DNA from: Phycisphaerales bacterium
GTDB taxonomy: Bacteria; Planctomycetota; Phycisphaerae; Sedimentisphaerales; Anaerobacaceae
Assembly: GCA_039679525.1 (NCBI GenBank)
Contig: JBDKUU010000806.1
Location: 1-41,669 of the forward strand
Direction: 5' to 3'
DNA length: 41,669 bases
The notes under the pieces: generated by a model
Seen by the model: the letters and a program-made list of their open reading frames with translations, nothing else
Databases searched by the model: none
Told to the model about the DNA's origin: nothing
Shown: positions 1-17,976 of the stretch, one piece after another
Numbering within the stretch: position 1 is the first letter of the stretch
Layout: every line of letters begins with the position of its first letter
Made by a program: the position numbers and the translations under genes

Positions 1-501
1 GTGTTCGATGAGCGGATACTTTCTGACTCTGGATCGACTCGGTTTCTTGCACGCCTTGATCCGCCGCGTCTCGTCCGCACTCAAACCTACCCAATTGATG
101 TATCGCGACAGGCCCATAGACCGCAGAAAACGCCTGCATGGCTTCTGCTTCCATTCCGAGTTACACCATGTGCGCAGCTTGACAATCGGGCCATTGTCCC
201 GCTTCCGAAAGGCGGGGATTCGGATCAGACCCTTGTGATCCACACACGAGAGATCGGCCCCATATTCCCTCGACGACACGACATGCAGCGTGACCCCTGC
301 ATCAGCCAATCGATCCCACAGAACATTGCGGACATACTGCATCGTGCGGGTGCTCTCATAGCCACAATCCATCATCACGGCGACATCGGGTTTTGGGAGT
401 AGACCTTGACACACCATCAGGGCGATTGCGGTGCTGTCAACCCCGCCACCGCAGGCAAAGACGATCTCCGATGGCAGCGTTATGGATTCCCTCCGCCTCA
501 T
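1..501 (-). CDS. PP-loop ATP-pyrophosphatase / PAPS-reductase-like protein, N-terminal part; the ORF runs off the left edge
   Basis: Own minus-strand translation from ATG (501-499): MRRRESITLPSEIVFACGGGVDSTAIALMV...RTWCNSEWKQKPCRRFL...; open to position 1. It has an SGGxDS-type PP-loop (ACGGGVDST). It is absent from the ORF track because no stop falls in the window. Confidence 0.6.
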   Translation of the reverse strand, partial: MRRRESITLPSEIVFACGGGVDSTAIALMVCQGLLPKPDVAVMMDCGYESTRTMQYVRNVLWDRLADAGVTLHVVSSREYGADLSCVDHKGLIRIPAFRKRDNGPIVKLRTWCNSEWKQKPCRRFLRSMGLSRYINWVGLSADETRRIKACKKPSRSRVRKYPLIEH

Positions 502-608
502 CGCAGACAATTGATTACTGCATCTCCTCGAACAGAATCGCGTCTTCCGGCGCCTCGTCTCAAAGAGACCGTGAGGCCTGGGACATGCGGTATTTTCACA
601 TATGGACA

Positions 609-1010
609 TCATCCTCGACGTGTCCTCCCATGCCGCTTCTCGTGGCATGGGCGACAGACCAGACGGAGGTTGCTTGGATCGTCCATGCCTTGTGGTTTGG
701 GAACGATGTGATCTACCACCCAATCGCCTCGGACTTGGCCACAATGGCTTCCGCAGAGCGTGCACGTCCCTCCATCCCGCCTGTAGACCATGCCACGCAG
801 ACCCCCGTAGCCTCGCCGCTTCCTCGCTCCAACCCACCGCTTGCCACCGTATCCGCGGCGGTAGGAGTTGGGGCGGGCCAGCAGCTCATAGCTGGTAGCC
901 GAGCCGATCGTACTGCTGGGCCGATACGTGATCGCTGCCATTGGCATGCGATCAGCATCACTCCACACAGCGGCCAGCCAAACCCCCCAGTTTACGTATC
1001 CGTAAACCAC
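609..1010 (-). CDS. HNH homing-type endonuclease (phage packaging-associated type)
   Basis: CTLCG...DHIVPKPQG...NLRLVCRPCHEKRH is a classic HNH/zinc motif. Its position near the presumed packaging end matches HK97-like phages. Confidence 0.85.
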   Translation of the reverse strand: MVYGYVNWGVWLAAVWSDADRMPMAAITYRPSSTIGSATSYELLARPNSYRRGYGGKRWVGARKRRGYGGLRGMVYRRDGGTCTLCGSHCGQVRGDWVVDHIVPKPQGMDDPSNLRLVCRPCHEKRHGRTRRG

Positions 1011-1125
1011 TCAGCAAAATAGCAGCGACCGCTCCGCCAGCCACCACAGGCACAGACCGATGGCGTCCGACATATCGCCACCCGGGTCTTCCCCCATGTG
1101 CCGTGCGTAATCAGGCACCTCGCAG

Positions 1126-1329
1126 TCACACCCGCCATCCAAGCACCTTATACGTCAGCCCGCATTTCCGACACCGCCGATACTGGAACGGCGGCTGGGT
1201 CGAGACCTGCTCCGTGTCCAGCGATCCGCACAGACAGCGGCTCTTCGTCGGGAACGCCCACTGCGGCGGCTCCTGCAATGGGGCCTTATCCTTGGGCACC
1301 GGACTCTCATCGTCGTCACGTCGATCCAT
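1126..1329 (-). CDS. Small zinc-ribbon protein (Ogr/Delta-like arrangement?)
   Basis: Internal ATG at 1329 gives MDRRDDDESP...RCLCGSLDTEQ...YRRCRKCGLTYKVLGWRV with CxCG...CxxCG. The upstream part of the 131-aa ORF is repeat-array translation. Confidence 0.4.
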   Translation of the reverse strand: MDRRDDDESPVPKDKAPLQEPPQWAFPTKSRCLCGSLDTEQVSTQPPFQYRRCRKCGLTYKVLGWRV

Positions 1330-1363
1330 CTGCCTGCTCCACGATCCGTCAACCAAACTACAG

Positions 1364-1414
1364 GTGGGCCCGCGTGCCGGAATCGAACCATCCTGTCCCA
1401 AACCACGAGCCCAC
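1364..1414 (-). other. tRNA-like acceptor/T-arm minihelix (about 51 nt); not a complete tRNA
   Basis: Minus strand reads GTGGGCT-CGTG...GGTTCGATTCC...CACG-C-GGCCCAC. There is a 7-bp acceptor-like stem and a GGTTCGATTCC T-loop consensus, but no D arm or anticodon arm. Confidence 0.25.
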
Positions 1415-1628
1415 CTTAGCCTTGCCTGCGTTGCCTTGCCCAGCCCCGCCCTGCCAAGCCTCGCCAGGCCGCGCCCGGCCACGCCTGGCCCGGCCCAGCC
1501 TGCGTTGACGTGCCCGACCAAGCCCGACCACGCCGGACCCTGCCTCGCCCAGCCGCGCCATGCCTGCGTTGCCTTGCCTCGCCAGGCCTCGCCGGGCCAA
1601 GCCCGGCCCGGCCCTGCCGGGCCTGCCT
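1415..1628. repeat. Pentanucleotide array (GCCNN)n, left copy
   Basis: About 40 consecutive 5-nt units, such as GCCTT GCCCA GCCCC GCCCT GCCAA GCCTC GCCAG. The punctuation 'CCTGCGTTG(C/A)C' occurs at 1425, 1499 and 1563. All six frames are open and give Ala/Arg/Pro/Gly-rich translations. Confidence 0.85.
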
Positions 1629-1630
1629 AA

Positions 1631-2161
1631 TCACGTCAGCATGGCTTCGAGTCCCTCCCGGATGGCCTTGAGTTCGTCGATATCCGTCACGGACCGGCAC
1701 CAGCCACGGAGCACGGAGAGCTTCCGCTCCACGAGCGACTTGCGGGCCTCTTCATCCGCCAGGACGTCGGACCGCTCGCGGAACCCGGCCTCCGAAAAGG
1801 CAGGCAGCCAGCGGCGCACCTGGACGGAGGACGAGGCGCCGGCTATGGCCTTCTGCGTCTTCCCTTTGCCCCGGCGCTCGACGAGCGAGCAGACGTACTT
1901 CGTCCCGATGATCATGGCCACGGCCTGCGTCAACCGGAACTTGCGGGCCGCCTCCGAGTCATCCCATTCGAAGAACTCATGCAGCGGATGGCTCTCGTCG
2001 GCAGCCTCCGTCACCACGTCCGCCGCCGTGATCGTGCCCTTGCGGCTGACGATCTCGGCCAGTGACTGCTCGATGACCACCGTCTTTCTCTTGCGCACTA
2101 CCTGACTCTCGGATCGCGAGAGATACTGCAATACCTGGTCGGCCATGATGTCACTCTTCAT
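1631..2161 (-). CDS. Conserved phage protein of unknown function
   Basis: The ORF reads like a real protein (HPLHEFFEWDDSEAARKFRLTQAVAMII...). Start is uncertain (2194, 2161 or 2146). It overlaps or abuts the stop of the upstream gene at 2151. Confidence 0.55.
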   Translation of the reverse strand: MKSDIMADQVLQYLSRSESQVVRKRKTVVIEQSLAEIVSRKGTITAADVVTEAADESHPLHEFFEWDDSEAARKFRLTQAVAMIIGTKYVCSLVERRGKGKTQKAIAGASSSVQVRRWLPAFSEAGFRERSDVLADEEARKSLVERKLSVLRGWCRSVTDIDELKAIREGLEAMLT

Positions 2162-2891
2162 CCTTTCCGCCTGCGATCTTCTGCAGGATTTCATCGGATA
2201 GTTCCACGTTCATCGCCCAGTCGGGGATCATCAGGGCCTTCACCGGCGGCCGGCATCGTTTGCGAACTGCCGCAATCTCCTTGGCGTCCGCGATGCTCCG
2301 GCTGACGATGAACGTGCCGTAATTTCCATCCTTCTCCGGCCGCCATTCCCCAATGCCCACCTTGCCCGCCCGATTGAGCAGATCGACCACCGTCTCGGGC
2401 GGCATGGACTCCGGGAAGGAGATCACCATCGCCGCCTTCCAGTCCTCGAAGCTCGGCCGGAATCTAACGTCGGGCACGCGACCCATGCCAGACGTGCGAA
2501 CCATGTCCATCCGCGGGACCATCCGGGAGAACGTGATCGGGACCGATCCCCCCTCGATGAAGAGACTCGACCGCAACGCCGTCTTCTTGAGCCCTTTGAC
2601 CGACGTCGAGGCGGTCAACATCGCCTTCTTGAACGCCGTCGGCGGGATACAGATCTCGTCCACCGTGTTGCGGATGATCGCCCGGTCGACGCACTCCGAA
2701 GGGACCTTCTTCTCCCGCTGCGTGGGCAGGCCCATGTGCTTGCGGAGCATCTCCTCGATGGCCTTCTGACTGAAGCAATTCTGGATCATGGGGGCAGTGC
2801 CCTCCACCTCCAGGCACAAAATGAGTTCCCGTGGCTGCTCGATAATCACACTGGCTGAAGTTTTCTTCGACATACCGTTCCTTCCGTTCAT
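2151..2891 (-). CDS. Conserved phage protein of unknown function
   Basis: A 246-aa ORF with balanced composition (…FRPSFEDWKAAMVISFPES…GIGEWRPEKDGNYGTFIV…). No family recognised with certainty. Confidence 0.55.
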   Translation of the reverse strand: MNGRNGMSKKTSASVIIEQPRELILCLEVEGTAPMIQNCFSQKAIEEMLRKHMGLPTQREKKVPSECVDRAIIRNTVDEICIPPTAFKKAMLTASTSVKGLKKTALRSSLFIEGGSVPITFSRMVPRMDMVRTSGMGRVPDVRFRPSFEDWKAAMVISFPESMPPETVVDLLNRAGKVGIGEWRPEKDGNYGTFIVSRSIADAKEIAAVRKRCRPPVKALMIPDWAMNVELSDEILQKIAGGKDEE

Positions 2892-2959
2892 CGTTGCGTT
2901 TCACTGCATGTCACTCGATCATCGCTTCTATCGTCCGTCGCCTCCTTTCTCGGCAAAAC

Positions 2960-3445
2960 TCCAATGTCGCCAAACCTGCGTTGCCCAGCCGTGCCACGCC
3001 CAGCCCCGCCACGCCGCGCCGTGCCTGCCTTGCCTTGCCTCGCCTGCGTTGCCTTGCCTCGCCGCGCCGCGCCAGGCCTCGCCAAGCCGTGCCGCGCCGC
3101 GCCGTGCCTGCCTTGCCTTGCCTGGCCGGGCCCGGCCATGCCGAGCCGAGCCATGCCGTGCCCAGCCTGCGTTGCCCTGCCCGGCCATGCCGAGCCTCGC
3201 CATGCCTTGCCCCGCAACGCCTGGCCGCGCCGCGCCGCGCCGAGCCGCGCCGCGCCAAGCCGCGCCGGGCCCTGCCTCGCCGGTCCACGCCTGCGTTGCC
3301 TTGTCCAGCCGTGCCGTGCCGAGCCAGGCCGTGCCCCGCCACGCCTCGCCGTGCCTCGCCTCGCCTGGCCAGGCCCAGCCTGCGTTGCCCTGCCCGGCCA
3401 TGCCTCGCCTTGCCTCGCCGTGCTATGCCGTGCCTTGCCCATTGT
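2960..3445. repeat. Pentanucleotide array (GCCNN)n, right copy
   Basis: About 90 consecutive NNGCC units in the same orientation as the left array. 'CCTGCGTTGCC' punctuation occurs at 2975, 3043, 3166, 3290 and 3379. Several overlapping stop-free ORFs lie on both strands. Confidence 0.85.
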
Positions 3446-3809
3446 CTTCAACATCCTCAGTCCTGTACCTCGGCGTCCAGCGATCACAGCCTCCGGCCAC
3501 GCGCGGCGAGCAGCCGAGGACGCATTGCGTCCGCTCCAACAAGCCGATCTCCAACTCCTCATGCAGGCAGAATCCACAGACGGCCGGCAACTGCCGCGGA
3601 CCACGGGCCATGCCTTTCTCCTGCTCTTCCCGAAAGGCCGCCAGCCGGGCCCGCATCGTCCCCTCGTCGAGCGGTTTCACCGCACCGGGCACAGGGCCAC
3701 GAGGCTTGCCGATGCGATGGGGATTGTGGAGGCAGTAGTGCCTGCGGTTGTACGCCCGCTTGCGGGCTTTGCGTCCTTGTTCCTCAGTGGTCACGGCTGC
3801 CCCCCGCAC
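3423..3809 (-). CDS. Hypothetical small basic protein
   Basis: ORF includes RKRAYNRRHYCLHNPHRIGKPRG...CGFCLHEE. Its C-terminal codons run into the pentamer array, and it overlaps the upstream gene end by 19 nt. Confidence 0.4.
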   Translation of the reverse strand: MRGAAVTTEEQGRKARKRAYNRRHYCLHNPHRIGKPRGPVPGAVKPLDEGTMRARLAAFREEQEKGMARGPRQLPAVCGFCLHEELEIGLLERTQCVLGCSPRVAGGCDRWTPRYRTEDVEDNGQGTA

Positions 3810-4249
3810 AGACTCGGAGGCCGATTCGTCCGCGTCCGGATCGCTATAGTCCCCGTCCGCACCGCGATGCCGTCCGTCGCCGACACGGTCTCGTAGTGCC
3901 AGCCATCCGACGTGTAACTCACCGTGAACTGCCAGAGCCCGTTCGGATCGACGGCCAACTCCGTCAGACCTGCACCCTCCTGCCGCCAGACCTTCAACTC
4001 CTGCGGCAGGGCGTTCGGCTCCTCGTTATCCGGATCGCAGACCCGGCCGTCGACGAGGATCATCTGACCCGTCCAGCCCGCCAGTCGCTTGAAGACCAGC
4101 TTCTCACCGCTCGCCGGGTCCGTCGCGACCCGATTCGGATCGAGGTCGTCGAGCGAGAGGAACGGCTGCTCGGGACACACCGCAAAGACCATCGGCGCCA
4201 CAACTACCAATACACACATCGCCATCATCCATCGATTCATCGTTTTCAC
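3791..4249 (-). CDS. Secreted protein with a signal peptide, function unknown
   Basis: N-terminus MKTMNRWMMAMCVLVVVAPMVFAVCPE is a hydrophobic signal-like segment. Confidence 0.55.
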   Translation of the reverse strand: MKTMNRWMMAMCVLVVVAPMVFAVCPEQPFLSLDDLDPNRVATDPASGEKLVFKRLAGWTGQMILVDGRVCDPDNEEPNALPQELKVWRQEGAGLTELAVDPNGLWQFTVSYTSDGWHYETVSATDGIAVRTGTIAIRTRTNRPPSLCGGQP

Positions 4250-4316
4250 CCTTCAAAAAGCCGCATGTCCCGTCCTGCCTCCCGTCTCCATGTGCCCCCC
4301 TGCCCGGGGGCCTGCG

Positions 4317-4529
4317 TCAGCCGTCCGCCGTCCATTGCTTCATCAGAAGCGGATACCGCAGCGTGTCATTGATCTGAACCGCGTCCGGGGCAGCGGACGC
4401 GGCCTGGTCTGTCACGGGCCAGTAGAGTTTTACCCACAGGTATGCTCTGATCCACGTGCACCACGTCCAACCATACACGGCCCCGAGCAGTTCATCTATC
4501 GCTGTGATTTGGAGCATGGACGCCGCCAT
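4317..4529 (-). CDS. Hypothetical protein, possibly the frameshifted continuation of the PnuC-like ORF
   Basis: Trp-rich hydrophobic ORF overlapping the 3' end of 4496..4729 in another frame. Confidence 0.3.
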   Translation of the reverse strand: MAASMLQITAIDELLGAVYGWTWCTWIRAYLWVKLYWPVTDQAASAAPDAVQINDTLRYPLLMKQWTADG

Positions 4530-4729
4530 CGCAACCAGCCCTCAATACTCAACACGATGAACACGACGTCACGAACTGCCAACGACCACAGGCCCGCATG
4601 GGCATACAGGCCACAGCAGAGGCTATTCGACACCAGCCACACGGGGAAACACCAGATCAGCCTGCGGTTGTTCAAAAGCACACCCACGATGGCCAACACT
4701 CCTGCGATACCACCGATCCATTCAGTCAT
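4496..4729 (-). CDS. Small membrane protein resembling the N-terminal half of PnuC-type transporters
   Basis: MTEWIGGIAGVLAIVGVLLNNRRLIWCFPVWLVSN...SIEGWLRW has two or three TM segments with a PnuC-like pattern (recalled from memory). Confidence 0.4.
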   Translation of the reverse strand: MTEWIGGIAGVLAIVGVLLNNRRLIWCFPVWLVSNSLCCGLYAHAGLWSLAVRDVVFIVLSIEGWLRWRRPCSKSQR

Positions 4730-6012
4730 CCCGTAGCACTCCTATGCGCCCGCTTCCTGTCGCGGATCTCATTCTGCATCGTCCGCTCCAGGTACGCCTG
4801 GGGCGAATCGCACCGCTGCTGCCCCGACCTGATCCGACCGGCGATCCGCAGGACCTTCGCACGCACCCGCGACATCCCGATCTCCGTCAGCTCGCAGCGG
4901 CATTGCTCCCAGAGCTTCGCCCAGTGGGCGACCTCGTTGACGTACTCACCCCGGTCACAGGTCGCGTACCCGGCCGCCGCACAGACCTGCTCCCCGAACG
5001 CATTCGCCTCGGCACTGTACCTGTGCCCCTGGGCCGCCAGGATGTCGGCCAACCGCACCCGGCTCGGCTCAGGCCGGATATCCGAGACGGGGAGGGCTTT
5101 CGGACCAGGATCACCGCCAGGCCTGTCCTGGGGGCTGCCTGGACCCTCCCCGCCGTCGGGACTCGTCGAGGGGGTCGGGGATCTCGGGATCGGGGTTTGC
5201 CCGATGGCGGTTACGTGACCGCATTGCGTGCATTGCATCGCCTTGCCCCCCCAGCCCTTGGCCGCCTTTCGGGGATTGCCGACGTGGCCGCATTGCGGGC
5301 ACGTCAGGCTTTGCGGGCCTTGGCCCGTTTGTCCGACGGCGCAAGCCGGCGGACCTTGGGCCGCACGAAGTGCGTCGAGGTCTTCGGACCTTCGATCTTC
5401 GATCTTTGCTTGCGCAGCAAGCCTTCTCGATTGCTTCGACTTAAAGGGCGGACCCTCGTTTTGACCCCGTAAAGGCCGTTTTCCACCCCCTTTTCCTACC
5501 CCCGGACCCCATCGTGACATTGGGGATTGTGGAGGCGATTTCTGAGAATGTTTTCCGACTACTATTTCCGGAATATCGTCGCACGAGTCCGGCGAAGGCT
5601 CTTCGACTCGCTCCAGGATGCCGACCGCTTCAAGGCGGTTGAGCAGGACGCTTGCACGCTTGGCCTTCACGCGCAGCAATCCGGCCACATCCGATGCCGT
5701 CATCGGCACTTTCGACCCGGTCACGAGAAGCCCTTGATATTCCAACCCCTGGTTCGTCGCGACCGTGAGAAGCTCCACGACCGCACCGACGAGCCACACA
5801 TAATCCGGATACGCGCGGAGGCGGTTCATCGAGACGAGCCACTCGGCCCCCGCCCCCTTCCACGCATTCACATACCACTTGAGATACTGATGCATCTCCA
5901 CGTTCGGCGGCATTCTCTCCGCCCCGAACCGCTCCGCGTAGCCGACGAACCGCCAGACTTTGACCCCTCTGGTCCCTGTGTCTGAATCGGATTGCCGCCT
6001 GGCCTTAGTCAT
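4726..6012 (-). CDS. Replisome-organiser-like (winged-helix, DnaD-like) replication protein with a central zinc ribbon
   Basis: Start chosen at MTKARRQ (ATG 6012) to couple with the upstream ORF. The N-terminal region YLKWYVNAWKG...MTASDVAGLLRVKAKRASVLLNRLEAVGILERV looks like Phage_rep_org_N. It also has CPQCGH...CTQCGH. Confidence 0.4.
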   Translation of the reverse strand: MTKARRQSDSDTGTRGVKVWRFVGYAERFGAERMPPNVEMHQYLKWYVNAWKGAGAEWLVSMNRLRAYPDYVWLVGAVVELLTVATNQGLEYQGLLVTGSKVPMTASDVAGLLRVKAKRASVLLNRLEAVGILERVEEPSPDSCDDIPEIVVGKHSQKSPPQSPMSRWGPGVGKGGGKRPLRGQNEGPPFKSKQSRRLAAQAKIEDRRSEDLDALRAAQGPPACAVGQTGQGPQSLTCPQCGHVGNPRKAAKGWGGKAMQCTQCGHVTAIGQTPIPRSPTPSTSPDGGEGPGSPQDRPGGDPGPKALPVSDIRPEPSRVRLADILAAQGHRYSAEANAFGEQVCAAAGYATCDRGEYVNEVAHWAKLWEQCRCELTEIGMSRVRAKVLRIAGRIRSGQQRCDSPQAYLERTMQNEIRDRKRAHRSATG

Positions 6013-6199
6013 GTTTCCGCCGCTTCCGCGCTGCATAACACGACCCATGGGCGAACCCGTCAGATAAATCGCCCATGACGCTTTCCCATTCTTCGGCTGG
6101 CACGAATTGTGGGGAACAGTCACCGGGAGGCGTACAGAAGCACGGGACCACGCATTCATCCGGCGCAACTCTTTTATGACAGAGAACGCAAGTTTCCAT
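6005..6199 (-). CDS. Small Cys-rich protein
   Basis: A 64-aa ORF with CVLCHK...CVVPCFC. Its stop overlaps the ATG at 6012 by 8 nt. Confidence 0.4.
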   Translation of the reverse strand: METCVLCHKRVAPDECVVPCFCTPPGDCSPQFVPAEEWESVMGDLSDGFAHGSCYAARKRRKHD

Positions 6200-6212
6200 A
6201 CCTTGAACTCCT

Positions 6213-6275
6213 ATTTCTAAATCTGAACCGCTTTCTAAATCCGAACCGATCCGCGTAGCCGACGAACCGCCAGAC
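6213..6275. repeat. Tandem 18/19-bp iteron-like repeat plus a duplicated 33-bp segment
   Basis: ATTTCTAAATCTGAACCGC / TTTCTAAATCCGAACCGAT is followed by CCGCGTAGCCGACGAACCGCCAGAC. The latter recurs inside the replication gene at 5925..5958. Confidence 0.7.
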
Positions 6276-6313
6276 GTTGCGTGGGAGTGTTGAAGCGTTG
6301 GAGCGTGGATGCG

Positions 6314-7030
6314 TCATAGAACCGTCCCCCGTGACCCGTCGCTCGTGGCCCGTTCGTTGCTGCTGTCGAACAAACCCAACTGGCCCGCCCTGGCCTCTGT
6401 GCGGGCCTCCCTGCCCTGGAACTGCCGGACAATGTGCCACGAATCATTGCGCACAAACGAGGCCGAGTCTACACTGTCTGCTTCCATTGCAGCAGCGCGA
6501 TCCAAAGCCCGTAGTGTGCCGCACCGCCCGATATGGCACTTCATGCCGTGGTCGTGGGCCACCTTTACCCACATAGCAGCCGTCTCCCACTTCCACTCCA
6601 CCGTACCACCGACAAACAGATGGGTGAATGTTCCGTCGAGGACGGCACTACGGACCGCGTTCTCCATCATGCCGTCCTGTACCGCCAAAGCCAGCCGTGG
6701 AGCCGTGGACAGCGACTCAGACGCATATCGCAAGGAAAATCGCAACGAATCACAACCACGCGCCACAATATCCGGGCAGACAATGAAGTCCAGACTCAGA
6801 TCAAGCACATAGCATTTGCGAAGGGTCCCAAGGAAAAACTCCTCCATGAACGGGAAACCCCGCCGCCAACACTGGAATGCCCCATTATCCAAGGCGCAAG
6901 GAATGCCTCGATACATCTTGCTCGGGGTTCGGTTGGGACTCGATGCGATCATTATGCCAATACCCAAGTCGCGTACAATCTGAACCTTGTCTCCGCCTGG
7001 GTTGCTGGTATAGATCCTCATTCTACCCAC
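6314..7030 (-). CDS. TGT-fold / DpdA-like DNA (7-deazaguanine) transglycosylase candidate
   Basis: ALDNGAF near the N-terminus, LFVGGT, and HIGRCGT...ADSVDSASFVRN near the C-terminus resemble DpdA/archaeosine-TGT strand motifs (from memory). Size is 238 aa. Confidence 0.45.
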   Translation of the reverse strand: MGRMRIYTSNPGGDKVQIVRDLGIGIMIASSPNRTPSKMYRGIPCALDNGAFQCWRRGFPFMEEFFLGTLRKCYVLDLSLDFIVCPDIVARGCDSLRFSLRYASESLSTAPRLALAVQDGMMENAVRSAVLDGTFTHLFVGGTVEWKWETAAMWVKVAHDHGMKCHIGRCGTLRALDRAAAMEADSVDSASFVRNDSWHIVRQFQGREARTEARAGQLGLFDSSNERATSDGSRGTVL

Positions 7031-7118
7031 CCCCGCATGACCTCCAGGCAGTCTCCTTCGATGATCGTATTGACAGGCAATCCGTTGCTCACTTCACAGT
7101 CCTATTGGCGTTAGGCCG

Positions 7119-7166
7119 ATCTGCGTTCATCCGCGTCCATCTGCGGTTCCATCCTCTGTGCCTACA
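7119..7166. repeat. Intergenic mini-repeat of the GTTCATC(C/T)GC family plus a CTCTGTG remnant
   Basis: ATCTGCGTTCATCCGCGTCCATCTGCGGTTCCATCCTCTGTGCC. Confidence 0.7.
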
Positions 7167-7995
7167 TCTTCCGATTGCTGCCGGGACACCGCTTGTCCCG
7201 CTCGCCGCTCTTGCCCGTGAAGATCATGCCGTCCGTGTCGTGCGGCATGAGGCCCTTGGCACTCACCGGGATCGCGTGCCCGCAGTCCGGGCATGCAACG
7301 CGGGGGCGGCTGCCCTGCCGCGGCGACTTCGCCTGTGGCATGGATGCAGCCGGTGGGTGACGGAAGACATGCTGATTGCACACATTCGCCATGCCGACCA
7401 CCATATCCCTCTTCGGGCTGCTCAAGCAGCGGCACAGGTTCGATGCCGCCCTGTGCATGCACGTCTCACAGGTCCGCCTTTGCGCGGGCTGAGGACCCGC
7501 AGGAGCTGGGGGGCACGGCGGTAGTTTGCTGCGAAGTGCCTCCTGCTCCTGTGCCAGATCCCCGATCATCGGCTCCGGGGATGGAGTCGCGCCGGCCGCC
7601 TGGTCGAACGGACTGGCGAGGTCCACGATGATCGAGCCGTCGATCCACCGCTCGGCCTCGTAGCTCACCGGCTCCTTCGGGATCAGGCCAAGATCCTTGA
7701 ACCCGCCCACCGTCCCCACCCGGGCACTTACGCCCTGGCCCTTGCCCGGCATCATCATCTTGAGCGAGCCGTTCACGGCACCGGCGGACGGCATCAGCCG
7801 CAGGATGCGGACCTGATCGTGATGCTCGATCCGCAGGTACGGCTTGTCCTTCGGGATCTCCCGCGTCAGTTCCGCACTGATCGTCAGATTGCCCACCGGC
7901 GTGATCGTGACGAACCGGCCCTTGATCGACCGCCCGCCCTTGCCGCGGTTCGGGTACAGCGTCCAGCCATCCTCGGGAATCGTGATCTGCCTCAT
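7162..7995 (-). CDS. Hypothetical protein with a C-terminal Cys-rich region
   Basis: A 277-aa ORF with CETCMH...CRC...CNQH...CPDCGH. No family recognised. Confidence 0.5.
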   Translation of the reverse strand: MRQITIPEDGWTLYPNRGKGGRSIKGRFVTITPVGNLTISAELTREIPKDKPYLRIEHHDQVRILRLMPSAGAVNGSLKMMMPGKGQGVSARVGTVGGFKDLGLIPKEPVSYEAERWIDGSIIVDLASPFDQAAGATPSPEPMIGDLAQEQEALRSKLPPCPPAPAGPQPAQRRTCETCMHRAASNLCRCLSSPKRDMVVGMANVCNQHVFRHPPAASMPQAKSPRQGSRPRVACPDCGHAIPVSAKGLMPHDTDGMIFTGKSGERDKRCPGSNRKM

Positions 7996-8014
7996 ACGGT
8001 CAGTCCTTTCGGCT

Positions 8015-9163
8015 TCACGCCTTCCAACTGAGATATACCTGTTTCATCCCACATGCCTTTGCCGCGATCCGTGCCAATTCGTCCCGACTGACCCGGCAAA
8101 TCACCCCTTTATGATGAATAGCTACATTGTCCCCAACCTGGTCCATGCAGGTGATCGCCAGCGAGAACTTCACCTTCAGATTTCCCCGCTTCTTCCGATC
8201 CCCTCGAACCGCCTCCCCAATCAGATCGATGTCCAAACAGCCGAACCGAAGAGACCCCTGCCATTCGTTCTCTACGTTCGTTGCGTCCTTGTAACTCAGG
8301 CTCGCATCTTCCGTTGGCAGGGGCCCGTGCCCGTGCCGTGTCGTGTACGCTCTCGTGACGTAGACCACGTCGAGTTCCGATATCCCCGCAGATTCGCAGA
8401 TCGTGACGATGTTCGGCAAGCCCGTCCTGCTCCGTGTGACGTGCGGGAAAAAACGAAACGTCTCGTCGAGACAGAGCCCCTGAGAACCTTCGAAGATAAC
8501 CGTGTTCCACCGCTCGAGTTCCGATGCCAGCATTGGCCTGGCCGCCGTGTGGAACGCGGCAGCGCTGTCCATGAACTCGTCGAATAATAGCGAAGATGCA
8601 CATGCCTGCCGCAGGTTGTCCGAAGGAACCAAACCCAAAGACGCCAATCGATTCGGAAGGTAGACGTCGCGGATCGCCCGCACTTTTTCGGCAAAGTCTT
8701 TACACTCCATGTTCCACGCGAACAGTGGAAATTTTCCCTCGCACAATCTGACTACAGTCTCATTCACCCCGTAGCCGCAGGACCCGTGCCGTTGTGATCC
8801 GCGAGCGCGCTCCACTTCCCGATTGATGAGCATATCGTAAGGCGTCGTGATCGGGCTTGCGGGGTCCACGTAGAATTTCGGTTCGACGTATTGCCCAAGG
8901 TCCTTGTTCTCTCCGATCCACAGGAGTGGGTTGCAGATGAAGAACCGGGATAGATAAGTCGCAGAACCGTCCAGCGTCCCGCTGCCGAAGTGATGAAAGA
9001 CGTGCCCCACGCCGTCCTCTCGCACGACGGTGTGGCCGGCCTGGGGGCCGCCGTTGTAGCGAACCACAACGGACGGCCCTTTGGCCTGTGACGCAAAGAC
9101 GTGCGTCATTCTGCCTTTGCCCTCGTCACCGAACGCACTACCGATGATCGCCATAGCTTTCAT
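8015..9163 (-). CDS. Adenylosuccinate-synthetase family protein (PurA/PurZ-like)
   Basis: MKAMAIIGSAFGDEGKGRM (GDEGKG P-loop), YNGGPQAGHTV (AGHT His), FEGSQG and TRHGHGPLPTE. The ATG at 9163 forms an ATGA overlap with the vWA gene stop. The Asp/IMP loops diverge from E. coli PurA. Confidence 0.75.
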   Translation of the reverse strand: MKAMAIIGSAFGDEGKGRMTHVFASQAKGPSVVVRYNGGPQAGHTVVREDGVGHVFHHFGSGTLDGSATYLSRFFICNPLLWIGENKDLGQYVEPKFYVDPASPITTPYDMLINREVERARGSQRHGSCGYGVNETVVRLCEGKFPLFAWNMECKDFAEKVRAIRDVYLPNRLASLGLVPSDNLRQACASSLLFDEFMDSAAAFHTAARPMLASELERWNTVIFEGSQGLCLDETFRFFPHVTRSRTGLPNIVTICESAGISELDVVYVTRAYTTRHGHGPLPTEDASLSYKDATNVENEWQGSLRFGCLDIDLIGEAVRGDRKKRGNLKVKFSLAITCMDQVGDNVAIHHKGVICRVSRDELARIAAKACGMKQVYLSWKA

Positions 9164-10071
9164 ACATCGACCACCGTGATTCCTCCGCACGCCGTTCGCT
9201 TGGACAGCCCGGAAATCGCCTGTCTCACCACGACGCCGGTGCTGCCGTCCCATGAGGCCGCCACATTCTCGGCATTTTGCCCCTCATTCACCTGCATGAT
9301 CGAAACGATGACCTCTCCGAGACGGTTATGATCGGACACTTCAATGGCCCGCTCCCCCAGCAACTCCCTCCATTTCGCGATGGCATTCTGCTGTCTCGTC
9401 GCCGAAGTCGGCGTGATGAGGTGGAACACGTTCCAGTCACACGAGACTTCATCCAGGAGATCCTCGATGGCAACATCCGCTTCAACTGTCCCAGCCATGA
9501 ACCTTTGGATTTCTTCGCGAGTCAGGACCGGCAAAGGGGATTCATCTCCCACCGTGAAGAGATACCCCATCCGATTTCTCTTGATGATCGCGTCACACTT
9601 CGTCTTGTGGGCGGCGAACCACCACAGGATCGGGTACGATTCCCCCCCATTTCCGCCGCCGTTCCCTTCGATGAAGAACTTCTCGATCTGTTGGGCGAGA
9701 CGGATGTCTGCCTCGAATTGCGTGGTCTGAATCGGCGCATCGTCGCATGTGGCATCTCCGATCGCGGCCAACAACACATGCGGGTCCGTCACCGGTTTTC
9801 GGTCGTAGATGCCTTGGATGATGATTCCCAGCGACTTCTTGATGATCGTCGTAGCGAGCATCCCCATCGAACCCGTCTCATCCACCCCAATAATAACCGG
9901 GGTGGATTGCGGATTGGCTGGCGAATCACACGATTCCCGCACGCCGAACTTCGCCGGGTTCAGGTCATCGTGACAACCCGAACGATTGGTGAAGATGTCC
10001 TCTTGCGACTTGCCTGCGATGGACTTCGAATAATCCGTGTACACACTGTCATTCCATGTTGCATTTCCCAT
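9160..10071 (-). CDS. von Willebrand factor A (vWA) domain protein
   Basis: MIDAS-like VIIGVDETGSMG followed by a Rossmann-like alternation pattern. Size is 303 aa. Confidence 0.6.
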   Translation of the reverse strand: MGNATWNDSVYTDYSKSIAGKSQEDIFTNRSGCHDDLNPAKFGVRESCDSPANPQSTPVIIGVDETGSMGMLATTIIKKSLGIIIQGIYDRKPVTDPHVLLAAIGDATCDDAPIQTTQFEADIRLAQQIEKFFIEGNGGGNGGESYPILWWFAAHKTKCDAIIKRNRMGYLFTVGDESPLPVLTREEIQRFMAGTVEADVAIEDLLDEVSCDWNVFHLITPTSATRQQNAIAKWRELLGERAIEVSDHNRLGEVIVSIMQVNEGQNAENVAASWDGSTGVVVRQAISGLSKRTACGGITVVDV

Positions 10072-11136: not shown

Positions 11137-11146
11137 TCAAACCCCT

Positions 11147-13366: not shown

Positions 13367-13687
13367 TCAGGTTCCGAACATGGTACAACACGATCCGATC
13401 CGCGAATTGCCCCCAGCATAGAGCATCGTGAGGTTCGGCACATGGGCGAGGCCCGCGTCCGTGATCCCCGAATTGCCCCATGCATCGAGCGTCGTGAGGT
13501 TCGGCACATGGGCGAGGCCCGCGTCCGTGATCCCCGAATTGCCCCCATCATAGAGCTTCGTGAGGTTCGGCACATGGGCGAGGCCCGCGTCCGTGATCCC
13601 CGAATTGCCCCCAGCATAGAGCGTCGTGAGGTTCGGCAACTCGGCGACCTCGACTCCAATCTGTCTGGCAAATTGTTCGGCTGTCAT
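13367..13687 (-). CDS. Mini leucine-rich-repeat (RNI-like LRR) protein
   Basis: Four near-identical 22-aa units of NSGITDAGLAHVPNLTxLYxGG. Size is 106 aa. Confidence 0.65.
   Translation of the reverse strand: MTAEQFARQIGVEVAELPNLTTLYAGGNSGITDAGLAHVPNLTKLYDGGNSGITDAGLAHVPNLTTLDAWGNSGITDAGLAHVPNLTMLYAGGNSRIGSCCTMFGT
13395..13640. repeat. 66-bp tandem repeat (about 3.7 copies) encoding the LRR units
   Basis: CACATGGGCGAGG recurs at 13439, 13505 and 13571. Confidence 0.85.
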
Positions 13688-16793: not shown

Positions 16794-16863
16794 CGATCGA
16801 GATGTGATGCCTGAGCACTGTTATTACCGTGGGATAGCGGATTCGTACCATTGGATTCTACCA

Positions 16864-16910
16864 GGGGACTCATAATCCCTTGGTTCAAGGTTCGAATCCT
16901 TGTGGGCCCA
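16864..16910 (+). other. 3' fragment of tRNA-Met(CAU), anticodon arm to discriminator; attP/att core candidate
   Basis: GGGGA-CTCATAA-TCCCT, then TGGTT, then CAAGG-TTCGAAT-CCTTG, then TGGGCCC-A. No complementary 5' acceptor strand or proper D arm lies upstream. It sits 29 nt from the integrase gene. Confidence 0.6.
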
Positions 16911-16938
16911 GTCGGTGAAATCCCCTGCTCAGGGGACC

Positions 16939-17976
16939 TCACCATGAAACGGCGTTGAATGCCCGGCGGCCCTCGTCCAGGCATTTCCGCTGGTCTACCG
17001 CTGTGTAGACCTCTTTGGTCAGCCGATCAGTGGCGTGTCCGAGCAGCTCCTGGCAGAAGTGGCTCGGCACGCCCTGCTCGGCCAACTGCGTGGCCGCGTT
17101 CTTCCGCAACGTGTGGAACGTCCCCTCGGCGATCCGCTCAGCGCCCGCCGCAATCCGCAGGGCGTTCGCCGCCGCGAGGATCCGCCGCAGCTCCCTGTGA
17201 AAATTGTTGTACGGGTACTTTCTCTGTGTTTCGGACAGGCGCCCCACCTGCGACTGCTTGGCCCGACAGGTCCGCTCCTTCAGGAATGGATACCGCCACG
17301 GGGCCACCTGCCGCAGTCGCGACAGGACCGCCCAGAGATCGTCGCTCATCGGGACCTTGCGGTCTGACTTGCCCTTGGCCGTCCACCGCCAGAACTCCCC
17401 GAGCCGGTCCGGACGCGACTGGATCATAACGACCCCGGACTCGAGGTCGATATCGTCCCATCGCAGGTTCCAGACCTCGCCGATCCGAGGGCCTGTCAAG
17501 GCCATCAGGAAAAAGCCCGTCCACCGCAAGATCCCGGCCGCGTCCGGCCACGTCAGGGCCGCTACGCCATCGTCCGGATTGCCCCGCACGACGTCGAGCA
17601 TCGAGCCCAACTCCTCGTGCGTGTAGACGTGCACCTTCCGTCGCGTCGCCTTGACCCGGTGGCAGCGGGCCACCGGATTCGCCGCACAGATCCCGGCGTC
17701 GACGGACCAGGCGAAGACCTGGCCGACCGCCGCCGTATAGCTGAAGACGCTGTGCTCGCTGAAGCCCCGGCCGTAGCGGCTGGTCGCCTCATCCCGCATG
17801 TGACGCTGGTACGAGTCGATCTGCTCGGCCGTCACGGCGGCCGCCGGCGCCGAATCGCCCAGCAGCCGCCTCAGCAGCCGCCAGGCGGACCGGCACTTGG
17901 CGCGGGTCGTGCCCTGGGTCACGGAAGAACTCTCGAACTTGTCAAATAACTCAACGATCGTGCATCGCTCAGGCAT
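16939..17976 (-). CDS. int: Tyrosine integrase / site-specific recombinase
   Basis: LTGPRIGEV (Arg), HTLRKNAAT (HxxR), LLGHAT and KEVYTAV (catalytic Tyr). Size is 345 aa. Confidence 0.9.
   Translation of the reverse strand: MPERCTIVELFDKFESSSVTQGTTRAKCRSAWRLLRRLLGDSAPAAAVTAEQIDSYQRHMRDEATSRYGRGFSEHSVFSYTAAVGQVFAWSVDAGICAANPVARCHRVKATRRKVHVYTHEELGSMLDVVRGNPDDGVAALTWPDAAGILRWTGFFLMALTGPRIGEVWNLRWDDIDLESGVVMIQSRPDRLGEFWRWTAKGKSDRKVPMSDDLWAVLSRLRQVAPWRYPFLKERTCRAKQSQVGRLSETQRKYPYNNFHRELRRILAAANALRIAAGAERIAEGTFHTLRKNAATQLAEQGVPSHFCQELLGHATDRLTKEVYTAVDQRKCLDEGRRAFNAVSW

What the first reader, a model, noticed from the sequence alone, without database searches (positions are those of the whole stretch)
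1409..3445. Two arrays with strict 5-nt periodicity, (GCCNN)n punctuated by CCTGCGTTGCC, bracket a two-gene module
Regions 1415..1628 and 2960..3445 consist almost entirely of consecutive pentamers with GCC fixed and two variable bases, about 40 and about 90 units by eye. They share the same orientation. An 11-mer, CCTGCGTTGCC, recurs at 1425, 1499 (variant), 1563, 2975, 3043, 3166, 3290 and 3379, and each occurrence shifts the register by one. The period is 5 rather than 3, and the register shifts break any single reading frame. The many long ORFs here are therefore artefacts, and the arrays are most likely non-coding. The arrays flank two conserved genes of unknown function (1631..2161, 2151..2891) and sit just upstream of the HNH/packaging end. 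Arrays of contiguous 4-7-bp units are known as centromere, operator or packaging sites for RHH-type or similar proteins. I do not recognise this particular motif. Possible roles include a protein-coating or partition site, a pac/cos-accessory site, a recombination hotspot, a modification target, or a structured (G-rich minus strand) RNA or DNA.
Basis: seen in the sequence. Interest (0 to 1): 0.75.

Follow-up and report, generated by a model that had tools for sequence, protein, structure and literature searches.

The report
Phage VIPR guide-RNA arrays
The two 5-base-periodic arrays are the guide-RNA genes of a phage-encoded VIPR system, an RNA-guided DNA-recognition system related to CRISPR and first described in 2026, and the two genes between them encode its Vipr protein and an accessory protein; this is a new example of a recently described kind.

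Summary
Windows 1409-1630 and 2960-3445 are the only places in 41.7 kb with strong 5-nt periodicity. They hold 129 pentamer units, and all eight copies of CCTGCGTTG lie in them on one strand. Read on the minus strand, which is the gene strand, the units are GGCNN: GGC is nearly invariant and NN is close to random. This is the signature of vrRNAs of VIPR systems (bioRxiv 10.64898/2026.04.26.720920 and .720927).

The 246-aa gene between the arrays is a Vipr homologue. It matches SUSP1 Vipr (PDB 36pp), it keeps the thumb Arg and the G-loop E-W-R, and its predicted fold matches Csm3/Cas7. The 187-aa gene is the syntenic accessory gene (vap), but it is unrelated to SUSP1 vap1.

The "11-mer" marks a vrRNA boundary: penultimate unit GGCAA, then terminal unit CGCAG, whose last G is the first G of the next guide. 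This is the "staggered array" architecture, which is also found in Cluster F mycobacteriophages and in 70 of 80 Vipr loci from bacterial genomes.

I infer about 10 guides that direct Vipr filaments to foreign DNA by the one-nucleotide-skip code. No natural target was found and there is no self-target. Verdict: a new member of a known kind.

The parts
2960..3445 (-). Upstream vrRNA array, transcribed before vipr. It holds about 94 GGCNN units in 7 register runs, which are the candidate vrRNAs (minus strand, 5'->3'): 3439->3380 (12 units including the terminal CGCAG), 3380->3291 (18), 3291->3167 (25), 3167->3108 (12, ending GGCAG), 3108->3044 (13), 3044->3025 (4, ending GGCAG; probably a remnant) and 3025->2976 (10). 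Adjacent runs share one G.
2151..2891 (-). vipr gene, encoding a minimal RAMP protein. The ORF is 246 aa from the ATG at 2891. The start is probably at 2873 (240 aa, preceded by GGAAGGAA), as in the 88%-identical homologue P0001. Thumb R145 and G-loop G179-x-G-E182-W183-R184-P185 are invariant in 43 homologues.
1631..2194 (-). vap-like accessory gene. The ORF is 187 aa. The gene caller gives 176 aa from 2161, and homologues suggest 171 aa from 2146. It is all-alpha, with a conserved HPLHxxFEWDDSxAA core. It lies directly downstream of vipr in relatives from many phyla. It is not homologous to SUSP1 vap1.
1409..1630 (-). Downstream vrRNA array, about 44 GGCNN units. The candidate vrRNAs are 1623->1564 (12 units), 1564->1500 (13; its penultimate unit is degenerate, GTCAA) and 1500->1426 (15), followed by a short degenerate stretch 1426->~1407 that runs into the hairpin.
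1355..1419 (-). Strong hairpin directly 3' of the last repeat, followed by a U-rich stretch. Its loop region carries a tRNA T-loop-like GGTTCGATTCC. It may be a 3' cap or terminator of the array transcript. That assignment is inferred, not shown.
   Evidence: dG -38.6 kcal/mol, z -3.5; terminator-like site 1373-1360
3379..3389 (-). The other copies are at 1425, 1499, 1563, 2975, 3043, 3166 and 3290. The variant boundary GGCAG|GC occurs at 3108, 3025 and 1623.

Best explanation
This is a VIPR (Viral Interference Programmable Repeat) locus of the 'staggered array' architecture, carried by a temperate phage.

The minus strand is transcribed through array 2, vipr, vap and array 1. The GGCNN tracts are vrRNAs.

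By analogy with the SUSP1 and P. fulva systems, one Vipr protomer binds each pentamer. It buries G-G-Y using the thumb Arg and the G-loop E-W-R, and it presents the two variable bases. The filament then pairs those NN dinucleotides with DNA that has the form xNNxNNxNN, skipping one target base per repeat, usually the codon wobble position. It holds the DNA in an R-loop triplex. The result is silencing of genes of a competing phage, prophage or satellite, with Vap assisting.

The conserved GGCAA-CGCAG (or GGCAG) unit ends each guide and overlaps the next guide by one G. It therefore acts as the boundary or processing signal, and it explains the -1 register shift.

Shown here: the repeat anatomy, homology to Vipr, the RAMP fold, conserved RNA-binding residues, conserved synteny and strand across phyla, hypervariable NN between close relatives, and the absence of self-targets.

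Inferred: transcription, processing at SGCAG, filament formation, the one-nucleotide-skip rule in this subtype, and the identity of the targets.
For: 1. Repeat anatomy. GGC is nearly invariant and NN carries about 1.95 bits per position over 129 units. This matches the published vrRNA definition of alternating GGY/NN, i.e. YNNGG tandem repeats.

2. Vipr homology. The enclosed 246-aa protein hits PDB 36pp 'SUSP1 Vipr protein' with phmmer E 2.8e-4, with a profile E 2.3e-6, and with hhalign probability 96.8%. SUSP1 R138 aligns with R145, and D177-W178-R179 aligns with E182-W183-R184. All four are invariant in 43 homologues, and these are the residues the cryo-EM paper shows binding GGY.

3. Fold. 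The AF2 model has pLDDT 85.7. All of the 50 listed Foldseek PDB matches are CRISPR effector-complex subunits, mostly type III Csm/Cmr and type VII; the best is E 1.2e-7.

4. Conserved module. Cluster F1 mycobacteriophages have the same order, array then a 248-aa homologue (31% identity, E 4e-22) then a 151-aa homologue (29% identity, E 4e-16). Metagenomic relatives have arrays on both sides of vipr-vap.

5. Strand association. In 80 bacterial-genome loci with a Vipr relative, 70 have at least 5 GGYNNGGYNNGGY on the vipr strand and none has that many on the other strand. A vap-like gene follows vipr in 68 of the 80.

6. Hypervariable guides. The closest relative (Vipr 88% identical) keeps the GGC scaffold and the GGCA[A/T/G]CGCA boundary but has entirely different NN.

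7. Boundaries. Register shifts of -1 are preceded by [C/G]GCA. Family-wide, 246 of 371 register runs end in GGCAG and 135 of 296 adjacent runs overlap by exactly 1 nt. Run lengths peak at 10-12 units. This matches the paper's 'staggered arrays'.

8. No self-target. No site in the window scores above the shuffled-guide null, as the paper reports for VIPR guides searched against their own source contigs.
Against: No natural target was found. Ten exact-seed scans (8 of IMG/VR, 2 of metagenomes) gave only chance-like hits. These hits fell in unrelated genes (SecA, a GNAT acetyltransferase, a levivirus replicase, a tail protein), and the rest of each guide matched at chance level.

There is no expression or processing data for this locus or this subtype. 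According to the paper, staggered arrays were not among the architectures confirmed by sRNA-seq.

There is no ~40-nt structured 3' tail like that of type II vrRNAs.

One run has 25 units and one has 4, both outside the published range of 9-16.

Vap has no detectable similarity to SUSP1 vap1 and no confident fold.

Only the C-terminal third of Vipr aligns to SUSP1 Vipr at the sequence level.
Confidence: 0.88

Rival explanations
1. The arrays act as DNA: iterated binding sites (centromere, operator, or pac/cos accessory site) that the enclosed proteins coat on double-stranded DNA.
For: Contiguous short repeats flanking the genes of their putative binders resemble par, omega or ParR-type sites (general knowledge). 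An HNH gene lies nearby at 609-1010.
Against: The enclosed protein has a RAMP/RRM fold with the RNA-binding G-loop and thumb residues of Vipr, not an RHH or HTH fold.

The repeats are strictly co-oriented with vipr: 70 of 80 loci against 0 of 80. That fits a transcript, whereas symmetric DNA sites would not need it.

NN is hypervariable between close relatives. That is unexpected for a binding site, where the whole unit usually co-evolves with its binder.

In homologous loci the module sits in unrelated neighbourhoods: the early region next to the antirepressor and excisionase in mycobacteriophages, and next to recombination genes elsewhere. It is not near packaging genes.

For SUSP1, the RNA was shown to be the bound species.
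Confidence: 0.04
2. The arrays encode Arg/Gly/Ala-rich pentapeptide-repeat proteins. A 5-nt repeat gives the same cyclic pentapeptide in all three frames, and some mycobacteriophage annotations call a CDS there.
For: All six frames are open. Donkeykong gp48 and several other phage records annotate a hypothetical protein over the array.
Against: The invariant bases GGC fall in every codon position, and the variable bases do not follow third-position wobble.

The -1 register shifts are spaced at 64-124 nt with no consistent frame.

The translations have no significant Pfam match.

The arrays of an 88%-identical relative are not alignable as protein.
Confidence: 0.02
3. The arrays are Vipr-bound RNAs but not DNA guides. 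They might, for example, target RNA, act as scaffolds or decoys, or autoregulate the operon. The one-nucleotide-skip DNA rule of type II systems would then not apply to this subtype.
For: No natural DNA target could be found. Vap is a different family from vap1. The array architecture and the tail differ from type II. The cryo-EM paper shows that Vipr-vrRNA can also pair with ssRNA.
Against: The GGY-binding residues are conserved.

NN entropy is near 2 bits and guides turn over completely between close relatives. That pattern is typical of arms-race targeting.

The paper reports that all seven VIPR types share the repeat code.

The target search here was exact-seed only and covered limited databases, so a negative result is weak evidence.
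Confidence: 0.06

Closest known systems
Type II VIPR systems of Escherichia phage SUSP1 and a Pseudomonas fulva prophage (bioRxiv 10.64898/2026.04.26.720920; .720927; PDB 36pp)
   Same: Both have a Vipr protein with a RAMP fold and a conserved thumb Arg and G-loop [D/E]-W-R. Both have guide RNAs made of GGY+NN pentamers on the vipr strand. Both have arrays upstream of vipr and downstream of the accessory gene. Both are minimal two-gene loci carried by phages. Neither shows self-targets.
   Different: In SUSP1 the repeats are GGT and each vrRNA is a separate unit with a ~40-nt structured tail (pseudoknot) and spacer sequence. Here the repeats are GGC and the guides abut head to tail with only a GGCAA-CGCAG end and a 1-nt overlap.

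This Vipr is about 45 aa longer. It has a 17-residue longer thumb insertion and a C-terminal helical extension.

Vap is unrelated to vap1.

Sequence similarity is confined to about 65 C-terminal residues.
Staggered-array VIPR loci of Cluster F1 mycobacteriophages (Cheoctovirus: Donkeykong gp49/gp50, Saal gp51/gp52 and others) and Gordonia phages
   Same: The Vipr family (31% identity) and the Vap family (29% identity) are the same. Both have GGCNN arrays directly upstream of vipr on the gene strand, and guides that overlap by one G after a terminal GGCAG unit.
   Different: The mycobacteriophages have a single upstream array of 4-5 guides of 9-12 units. The boundary there is GGCAG only, not GGCAA-CGCAG. 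No downstream array is seen in the stretches examined. Host and genome are different.
Class 1 CRISPR-Cas backbone filaments (Cas7/Csm3/Cmr4)
   Same: Both use the RAMP fold. In both, one protomer binds per fixed number of guide nucleotides, and thumb insertion flips bases periodically. The best structural matches of the model are Csm3 chains (the mechanism is).
   Different: This locus has no CRISPR repeat-spacer array, no cas1/cas2 and no other cas genes. The guide is discontinuous: 2 of every 5 nt pair, against 5 of every 6 in CRISPR. The target is read with a 3-nt period.
TRAP (trp RNA-binding attenuation protein) binding to (G/U)AG repeats separated by 2-3 nt (from my own knowledge, not tested here)
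   Same: In both, a protein oligomer reads a conserved trinucleotide repeated with a ~5-nt period on single-stranded RNA, and the spacer bases are free.
   Different: TRAP is a closed 11-mer ring with an unrelated fold. Its spacers carry no information, and it regulates its own operon rather than guiding DNA recognition.

Membership tests
VIPR system | The Vipr protein is a minimal RAMP with an RRM core, a glycine-rich loop and a thumb. | tested here: met
   The AF2 model has pLDDT 85.7. The listed Foldseek PDB hits are CRISPR effector-complex subunits, mostly type III Csm/Cmr and type VII; best E 1.2e-7. A profile hits SUSP1 Vipr 36pp_D at E 2.3e-6, and hhalign gives probability 96.8%.
VIPR system | The residues that grip GGY are conserved: the thumb Arg (SUSP1 R138) and the G-loop D177-W178-R179. 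| tested here: met
   These residues align with R145 and with E182-W183-R184. All four are invariant in 43 homologues, with D replaced by E as a conservative change. The N-terminal contacts (H17, K33, R39, K82) could not be aligned.
VIPR system | The vrRNA consists of tandem pentamers with conserved GGY and hypervariable NN. | tested here: met
   Over 129 units, 124 are GGY. Entropy is 0.18, 0.07 and 0.29 bits for G, G and C, against 1.93 and 1.98 bits for the two N positions. The NN content is completely different in a relative whose Vipr is 88% identical.
VIPR system | The repeats lie in the intergenic regions flanking vipr/vap, on the coding strand. | tested here: met
   In the window, arrays lie upstream of vipr and downstream of vap, both on the minus strand like the genes. 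Family-wide, 70 of 80 loci have arrays on the vipr strand and 0 of 80 on the opposite strand.
VIPR system | Each vrRNA has 9-16 repeats. | tested here: inconclusive
   The register runs are 12, 18, 25, 12, 13, 4 and 10 units in array 2 and 12, 13 and 15 units in array 1. Most are in or near the range, and two are outliers. The true ends are unknown without RNA data. Family run lengths peak at 10-12 units.
VIPR system | An accessory gene (vap) lies adjacent to vipr. | tested here: met
   A 171-187-aa gene lies immediately downstream of vipr. Its homologues follow vipr in 68 of 80 genome loci and in the mycobacteriophages. Its function is unknown.
VIPR system | vrRNAs are expressed, processed and co-purify with Vipr. 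| not testable with these tools
   This needs sRNA-seq and an RNP pull-down. No sigma-70-like promoter was found at 1000-4400, which is consistent with read-through transcription but not informative.
VIPR system | Guides decode, with a 1-nt skip, to targets in competing mobile elements, and there is no self-targeting. | tested here: inconclusive
   There is no self-target above the shuffled-guide null. Ten exact-seed scans of the collections gave only chance-like hits. No cross-targets were found among the relatives held.
VIPR type II (SUSP1 / P. fulva clade) | Each repeat tract is followed by an invariant ~40-nt structured 3' tail (pseudoknot), and the vrRNA units are separate. | tested here: not met
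   Guides abut with only a 5-10-nt GGCAA-CGCAG or GGCAG end. The array RNA is not more structured than shuffles (z -0.8). Compare the SUSP1 locus.
VIPR type II (SUSP1 / P. fulva clade) | The accessory protein is vap1. | tested here: not met
   BLASTP gives E 2.7 and hhalign gives probability 0.1%.
VIPR with staggered vrRNA arrays (paper fig. S18) | Adjacent vrRNAs overlap by 1 nt, so the end of one marks the start of the next. | tested here: met
   Every run boundary shares one G (GGCAG|GC or CGCAG|GC). Family-wide, 135 of 296 adjacent runs overlap by exactly 1 nt and 246 of 371 runs end in GGCAG. The paper's figure itself could not be viewed; only its legend was read, and the type number (I-VII) could not be assigned.
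CRISPR-Cas | A repeat-spacer array with ~25-40-nt direct repeats, plus the adaptation genes cas1/cas2. | tested here: not met
   No such array appears in the TRF or repeat output. No cas family appeared among the ORFs scanned. Not every ORF of the window was scanned.

The most novel reading that the evidence does not exclude
The staggered subtype seen here may mature its guides by a mechanism that has not been described. In this reading a contiguous polycistronic GGCNN transcript is cut, or Vipr filaments are phased, at the terminal SGCAG unit. The shared G and the -1 register shift then act as the ruler that separates neighbouring filaments. The whole array is capped by a tRNA-like (T-loop) hairpin that recruits host tRNA-processing enzymes. 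Internal duplications (2983-3044 against 3066-3127; identical 3' ends of guides 1 and 3) would then record how new guides arise without Cas1/Cas2.
Probability: 0.25. Interest if true: 0.6.

Novelty: new member of a known kind. Interest (0 to 1): 0.4.

Why it matters
VIPR was described only in 2026, and only type II systems (SUSP1, P. fulva) have been studied functionally and structurally.

This window provides a compact natural example of the untested "staggered" architecture. It has about 10 guides in two arrays, a clean boundary motif, a distinct accessory protein, and a temperate-phage host genome that also carries a PurZ-like gene. The same Vipr-Vap family reaches well-studied Cluster F mycobacteriophages, where experiments are easy.

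It is useful for three purposes:
1. Correcting annotation. Several phage records call a CDS over the arrays.
2. Working out guide biogenesis and the role of Vap in this subtype.
3. Predicting which mobile elements such phages fight.

It does not reveal a new principle.

Tried and rejected
1. tRNA/tmRNA and Rfam. ARAGORN found nothing. Rfam found nothing at E<=1 over 1-6000, including no hammerhead ribozymes between guides.

2. Coding hypothesis. Pfam on six array ORFs gave nothing significant.

3. Structured-RNA hypothesis. The 135-nt guide 3 folds no better than shuffles (z -0.8), although it contains a GCGUUGC...GCAACGC pair.

4. attP idea for the T-loop-like hairpin at 1355-1419. I rejected this as the integration site, because the integrase (16939-17976) has its own tRNA-Met 3' fragment next to it.

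5. Target hunt. This consisted of 8 IMG/VR scans and 2 metagenome scans with 10-11-unit exact seeds decoded by the 1-nt-skip rule.
   - Guide 3 (units 1-10) hit 5 contigs. The genes are unrelated (tail protein, SecA, GNAT and others), and the other 14 units match at chance level, 5-9 of 28 bases. The in-frame placement is explained by the G-rich first-codon-position pattern of the seed.
   - Guide 4 hit a levivirus replicase with the skip at codon position 1.
   - All of these hits were judged to be chance.

6. Cross-targeting between the guides of relatives and the window, and the reverse: nothing above the null.

7. Vap function. NCBIfam, PADLOC and Pfam gave nothing. The AF2 model is of low confidence (pLDDT 67.6) and has no fold match.

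8. Type number (I-VII). It could not be assigned, because the paper's type tables and figures are not held as text.

9. Early ideas dropped once the Vipr hit appeared: Chi-site arrays, G-quadruplex or switch-region-like R-loop DNA, and TRAP-like attenuation.
Full report
**1. Observation**

The region was read directly. Lag-5 base autocorrelation is 0.58 for 1409-1630 and 0.66 for 2960-3445, against about 0.22-0.28 in control regions. A sliding scan of the whole 41,669-nt window finds values above 0.55 only at these two places. Successive GCC triplets are 5 nt apart in 28 of 36 intervals in array 1 and in 74 of 85 intervals in array 2. TRF reports periods of 5, 10 and 15.

All copies are on the + strand and all lie inside the arrays. 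Each produces a GCC-to-GCC spacing of 9, a register shift of -1. Three more -1 shifts occur at GCCTGCC (3023/3027, 3106/3110, 1621/1625). GCCNNGCCNNGCC occurs 89 times in the arrays and twice elsewhere in the window.

**2. Anatomy on the relevant strand**

The neighbouring genes are all on the minus strand. They are an HNH gene at 609-1010, a 187-aa ORF at 1631-2194, a 246-aa ORF at 2151-2891 and a 128-aa ORF at 3423-3809.

Read on the minus strand, the arrays are GGCNN units. Over 129 units, entropy is 0.18, 0.07 and 0.29 bits for G, G and C, and 1.93 and 1.98 bits for the two N positions. All 16 dinucleotides occur.

The other three shifts are GGCAG|GC.

Array 2, upstream of the 246-aa gene, therefore splits into runs of 12, 18, 25, 12, 13, 4 and 10 units. 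Array 1, downstream of the 187-aa gene, splits into runs of 12, 13 and 15 units plus a short degenerate end.

**3. The lead from related sequences**

A distant blastn of 1-8000 against GenBank phages hit only the array, and only in Cluster F1 mycobacteriophages such as Donkeykong and Saal. These phages carry the same GCCNN/GGCNN tract. The tract lies immediately upstream, in the sense direction, of a 248-aa gene that is 31% identical to the window's 246-aa protein (E 4e-22). That gene is followed by a 151-aa gene that is 29% identical to the 187-aa protein (E 4e-16).

So the order array, gene A, gene B is a conserved module, even though the genomes are otherwise unrelated.

**4. Identification**

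phmmer of the 246-aa protein against PDB sequences hit 36pp_D, 'SUSP1 Vipr protein', at E 2.8e-4. A profile of 43 homologues raised this to E 2.3e-6, and hhalign gives probability 96.8%.

A literature search led to two 2026 preprints that describe VIPR systems. They report the following:
- Vipr is a minimal RAMP protein.
- vrRNAs consist of 9-16 YNNGG repeats in which GGY is conserved and NN is hypervariable.
- An accessory gene, vap, is present.
- The vrRNA genes lie in the intergenic regions flanking the protein genes.
- Targets are dsDNA, read by pairing only the NN bases and skipping one target base per repeat, usually the codon wobble position.
- Natural targets lie in competing phages, prophages and satellites.
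- There are no self-targets.
- There are seven types, including 'staggered arrays' whose adjacent vrRNAs overlap by 1 nt.

The window's arrays fit this description exactly.

**5. Membership tests**

Sequence: SUSP1 thumb R138 and G-loop D177-W178-R179 are shown by cryo-EM and mutagenesis to hold the two guanines and the pyrimidine. They align with R145 and E182-W183-R184, which are invariant in the 43 homologues.

Fold: the AF2 model has pLDDT 85.7. Its listed Foldseek PDB matches are CRISPR effector-complex subunits, mostly type III Csm/Cmr and type VII; best E 1.2e-7.

Association: a scan of GTDB species genomes returned 80 loci with Vipr relatives in many phyla. The best, at 60% identity, is in a Ca. 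Sulfotelmatobacter (Acidobacteriota) MAG. Of these loci, 70 have at least 5 GGYNNGGYNNGGY on the vipr strand and none has that many on the opposite strand. In 68 of the 80, a homologue of the 187-aa protein follows vipr.

Guide turnover: the closest relative, with Vipr 88% identical, keeps GGC and the boundary GGCA[A/T/G]CGCA|GGC but has entirely different NN.

Boundaries: -1 shifts are preceded by [C/G]GCA in the window and its relatives. Across the 80 loci, 246 of 371 runs end in GGCAG and 135 of 296 adjacent runs overlap by exactly one nucleotide. Run lengths peak at 10-12 units. The mycobacteriophage guides have 9-12 units ending in GGCAG. This is the staggered architecture named in the paper.

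**6. Differences from the characterised type II systems**

The SUSP1 locus was fetched. Its vrRNAs are GGTNN tracts, each followed by a long tail and separated by spacer sequence. In the window, guides abut and no ~40-nt tail exists.

The array RNA is not unusually structured (z -0.8), and Rfam finds no ribozyme.

The 187-aa protein is unrelated to SUSP1 vap1. It has no family or fold match and only a low-confidence all-alpha model. It is therefore a 'vap' by position and conservation only.

This Vipr is longer than SUSP1 Vipr, with a larger thumb insertion and a C-terminal helical extension.

The paper says that staggered arrays, unlike the ribozyme-interspersed and single-guide architectures, were not confirmed by sRNA-seq. 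The type number could not be assigned from the text held.

**7. Targets**

No guide matches the window itself better than shuffled guides do. This agrees with the no-self-targeting rule.

Guides decoded by the 1-nt-skip rule were searched as exact 10-11-unit seeds in IMG/VR (8 scans) and in JGI metagenomes (2 scans). Most gave nothing.

Guide 3 (units 1-10) hit five contigs. The hits lie in unrelated genes (a tail protein, SecA, a GNAT acetyltransferase and others), and the remaining 14 units match at chance level. Guide 4 hit a levivirus replicase with the skip at codon position 1. I treat all of these as chance.

Guides of relatives do not target the window, and the window's guides do not target the parts of those relatives that I hold.

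The natural targets therefore remain unknown. The search was limited to exact seeds.

**8. Mechanism (inferred)**

- Read-through transcription of the minus strand yields a GGCNN polycistron. No sigma-70-like promoter was found at 1000-4400.
- Vipr protomers bind one per pentamer through R145 and E182-W183-R184.
- The SGCAG unit, with its shared G, delimits guides.
- The filaments pair their NN bases with xNN-patterned DNA of a competitor and block its transcription.
- Vap enhances this in an unknown way.
- A strong hairpin with a T-loop-like GGTTCGATTCC and a U-rich 3' side directly follows array 1. It may cap or terminate the transcript.

**9. Rivals**

DNA-level binding sites are disfavoured by the RAMP fold of the partner protein, by strict co-orientation with the gene, by NN hypervariability and by the variable genomic neighbourhoods.

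Coding repeats are disfavoured because the invariant bases fall in all codon positions, because of the frame-breaking shifts, and because the translations have no homologues.

A non-guide RNA role cannot be fully excluded while no target is known.

**10. Context and verdict**

The window is a temperate phage genome. It has an integrase at 16939-17976 with a tRNA-Met 3' fragment beside it, tail genes at 22-28 kb, and a PurZ-like gene at 8015-9253.

The finding is real, non-coding and functionally coherent. It belongs to a kind described in 2026: a VIPR locus of the staggered-array architecture with a non-vap1 accessory gene. It is a new member of a known kind. It is interesting as a specimen of an uncharacterised subtype, but it is not a new principle.

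Noticed in passing
window 8015-9253 (-): This is an adenylosuccinate-synthetase homologue (PF00709, E 1e-39; phrog_1211, E 3e-56). It resembles PurZ, which would suggest that the phage replaces adenine with 2-aminoadenine (a Z-genome). DatZ and MazZ partners were not looked for.
   Followed up: no
window 11371, 13022, 14448, 15262, 15734, 16323, 18235, 18480, 20147, 33568, 37774, 41447 (+); inverse copies at 11141, 15667, 16166, 21263: This is a dispersed repeat of about 30 nt made of three 8-nt units (CTCTGTGn CCTCTGTG CCTCTGTG GTG). It has 12 copies in one orientation and 4 in the other, spread over the genome. It could be a promoter, operator or start-associated element.
   Followed up: no
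window 7118-7160, 13332, 13780, 14115, 18200: A second dispersed repeat family, GATCTGCGTTCATCCGCGTTCATCTGCGGTTCC, has 5 copies. Some lie next to the CTCTGTG repeats.
   Followed up: no
window ~16845-16920 (+) and 16939-17976 (-): A tRNA-Met-like 3' fragment (anticodon loop CTCATAA, T-arm, acceptor end) lies directly beside a tyrosine integrase (phrog_1, E 3e-38). This is probably attP, so the phage is temperate and integrates into a tRNA-Met gene. A similar fragment occurs in relative L005.
   Followed up: partly
window 1355-1419 (-): A hairpin (dG -38.6 kcal/mol, z -3.5) with a tRNA T-loop-like GGTTCGATTCC lies immediately 3' of the downstream array and is followed by a U-rich stretch. ARAGORN does not call it a tRNA, and it is not the attP. 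Its role is unexplained; it may be a 3' cap or terminator.
   Followed up: partly
L001 3987-4373 (Donkeykong gene 48); also BobaPhett 51, Gorge 53, DRBy19 51, Philus 52: Several GenBank mycobacteriophage records annotate a 'hypothetical protein' CDS over the GGCNN array, while others (Saal, Mattes, SwagPigglett, James) leave it unannotated. These CDS calls are probably artefacts laid over vrRNA genes.
   Followed up: partly
window 2983-3044 vs 3066-3127; 3166-3197 vs 3379-3410: There are internal segmental duplications within array 2. One pair is 84% identical over 62 nt. The 3' ends of guides 1 and 3, plus the start of the following guide, are identical over about 32 nt. This suggests that arrays grow by duplication and then diverge in NN.
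   Followed up: partly
window 3172-3291 (-): Guide 3 has 25 units. This exceeds the family maximum seen here (21) and the published range of 9-16. It contains a degenerate unit, GGCGT-TGCGG, whose GCGUUGC is complementary to the GCAACGC of its own terminal motif about 40 nt downstream. It may be two guides fused after loss of a boundary.
   Followed up: partly
window 2151-2891 (-): The gene call on record for this contig (P0002, 212 aa) starts at an internal Met and removes the conserved N-terminal beta-strand (residues 22-31; I17 and E28 are invariant). Homologues support a protein of about 240 aa starting at 2873.
   Followed up: partly
window 13397-13638 and 24787-25533: A 66-nt tandem repeat with 3.7 copies (93% matches) lies at 13397-13638. 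Repeats of 75, 150 and 225 nt lie inside the 921-aa tail gene (23733-26498).
   Followed up: no
window 1126-1330 (-): A small ORF of about 68 aa with two CxxC pairs (CLCGS...CRKCG) lies between the array-1 hairpin and the HNH gene. It looks like a zinc ribbon. The longer 131-aa ORF call that extends into the array is probably an artefact.
   Followed up: no
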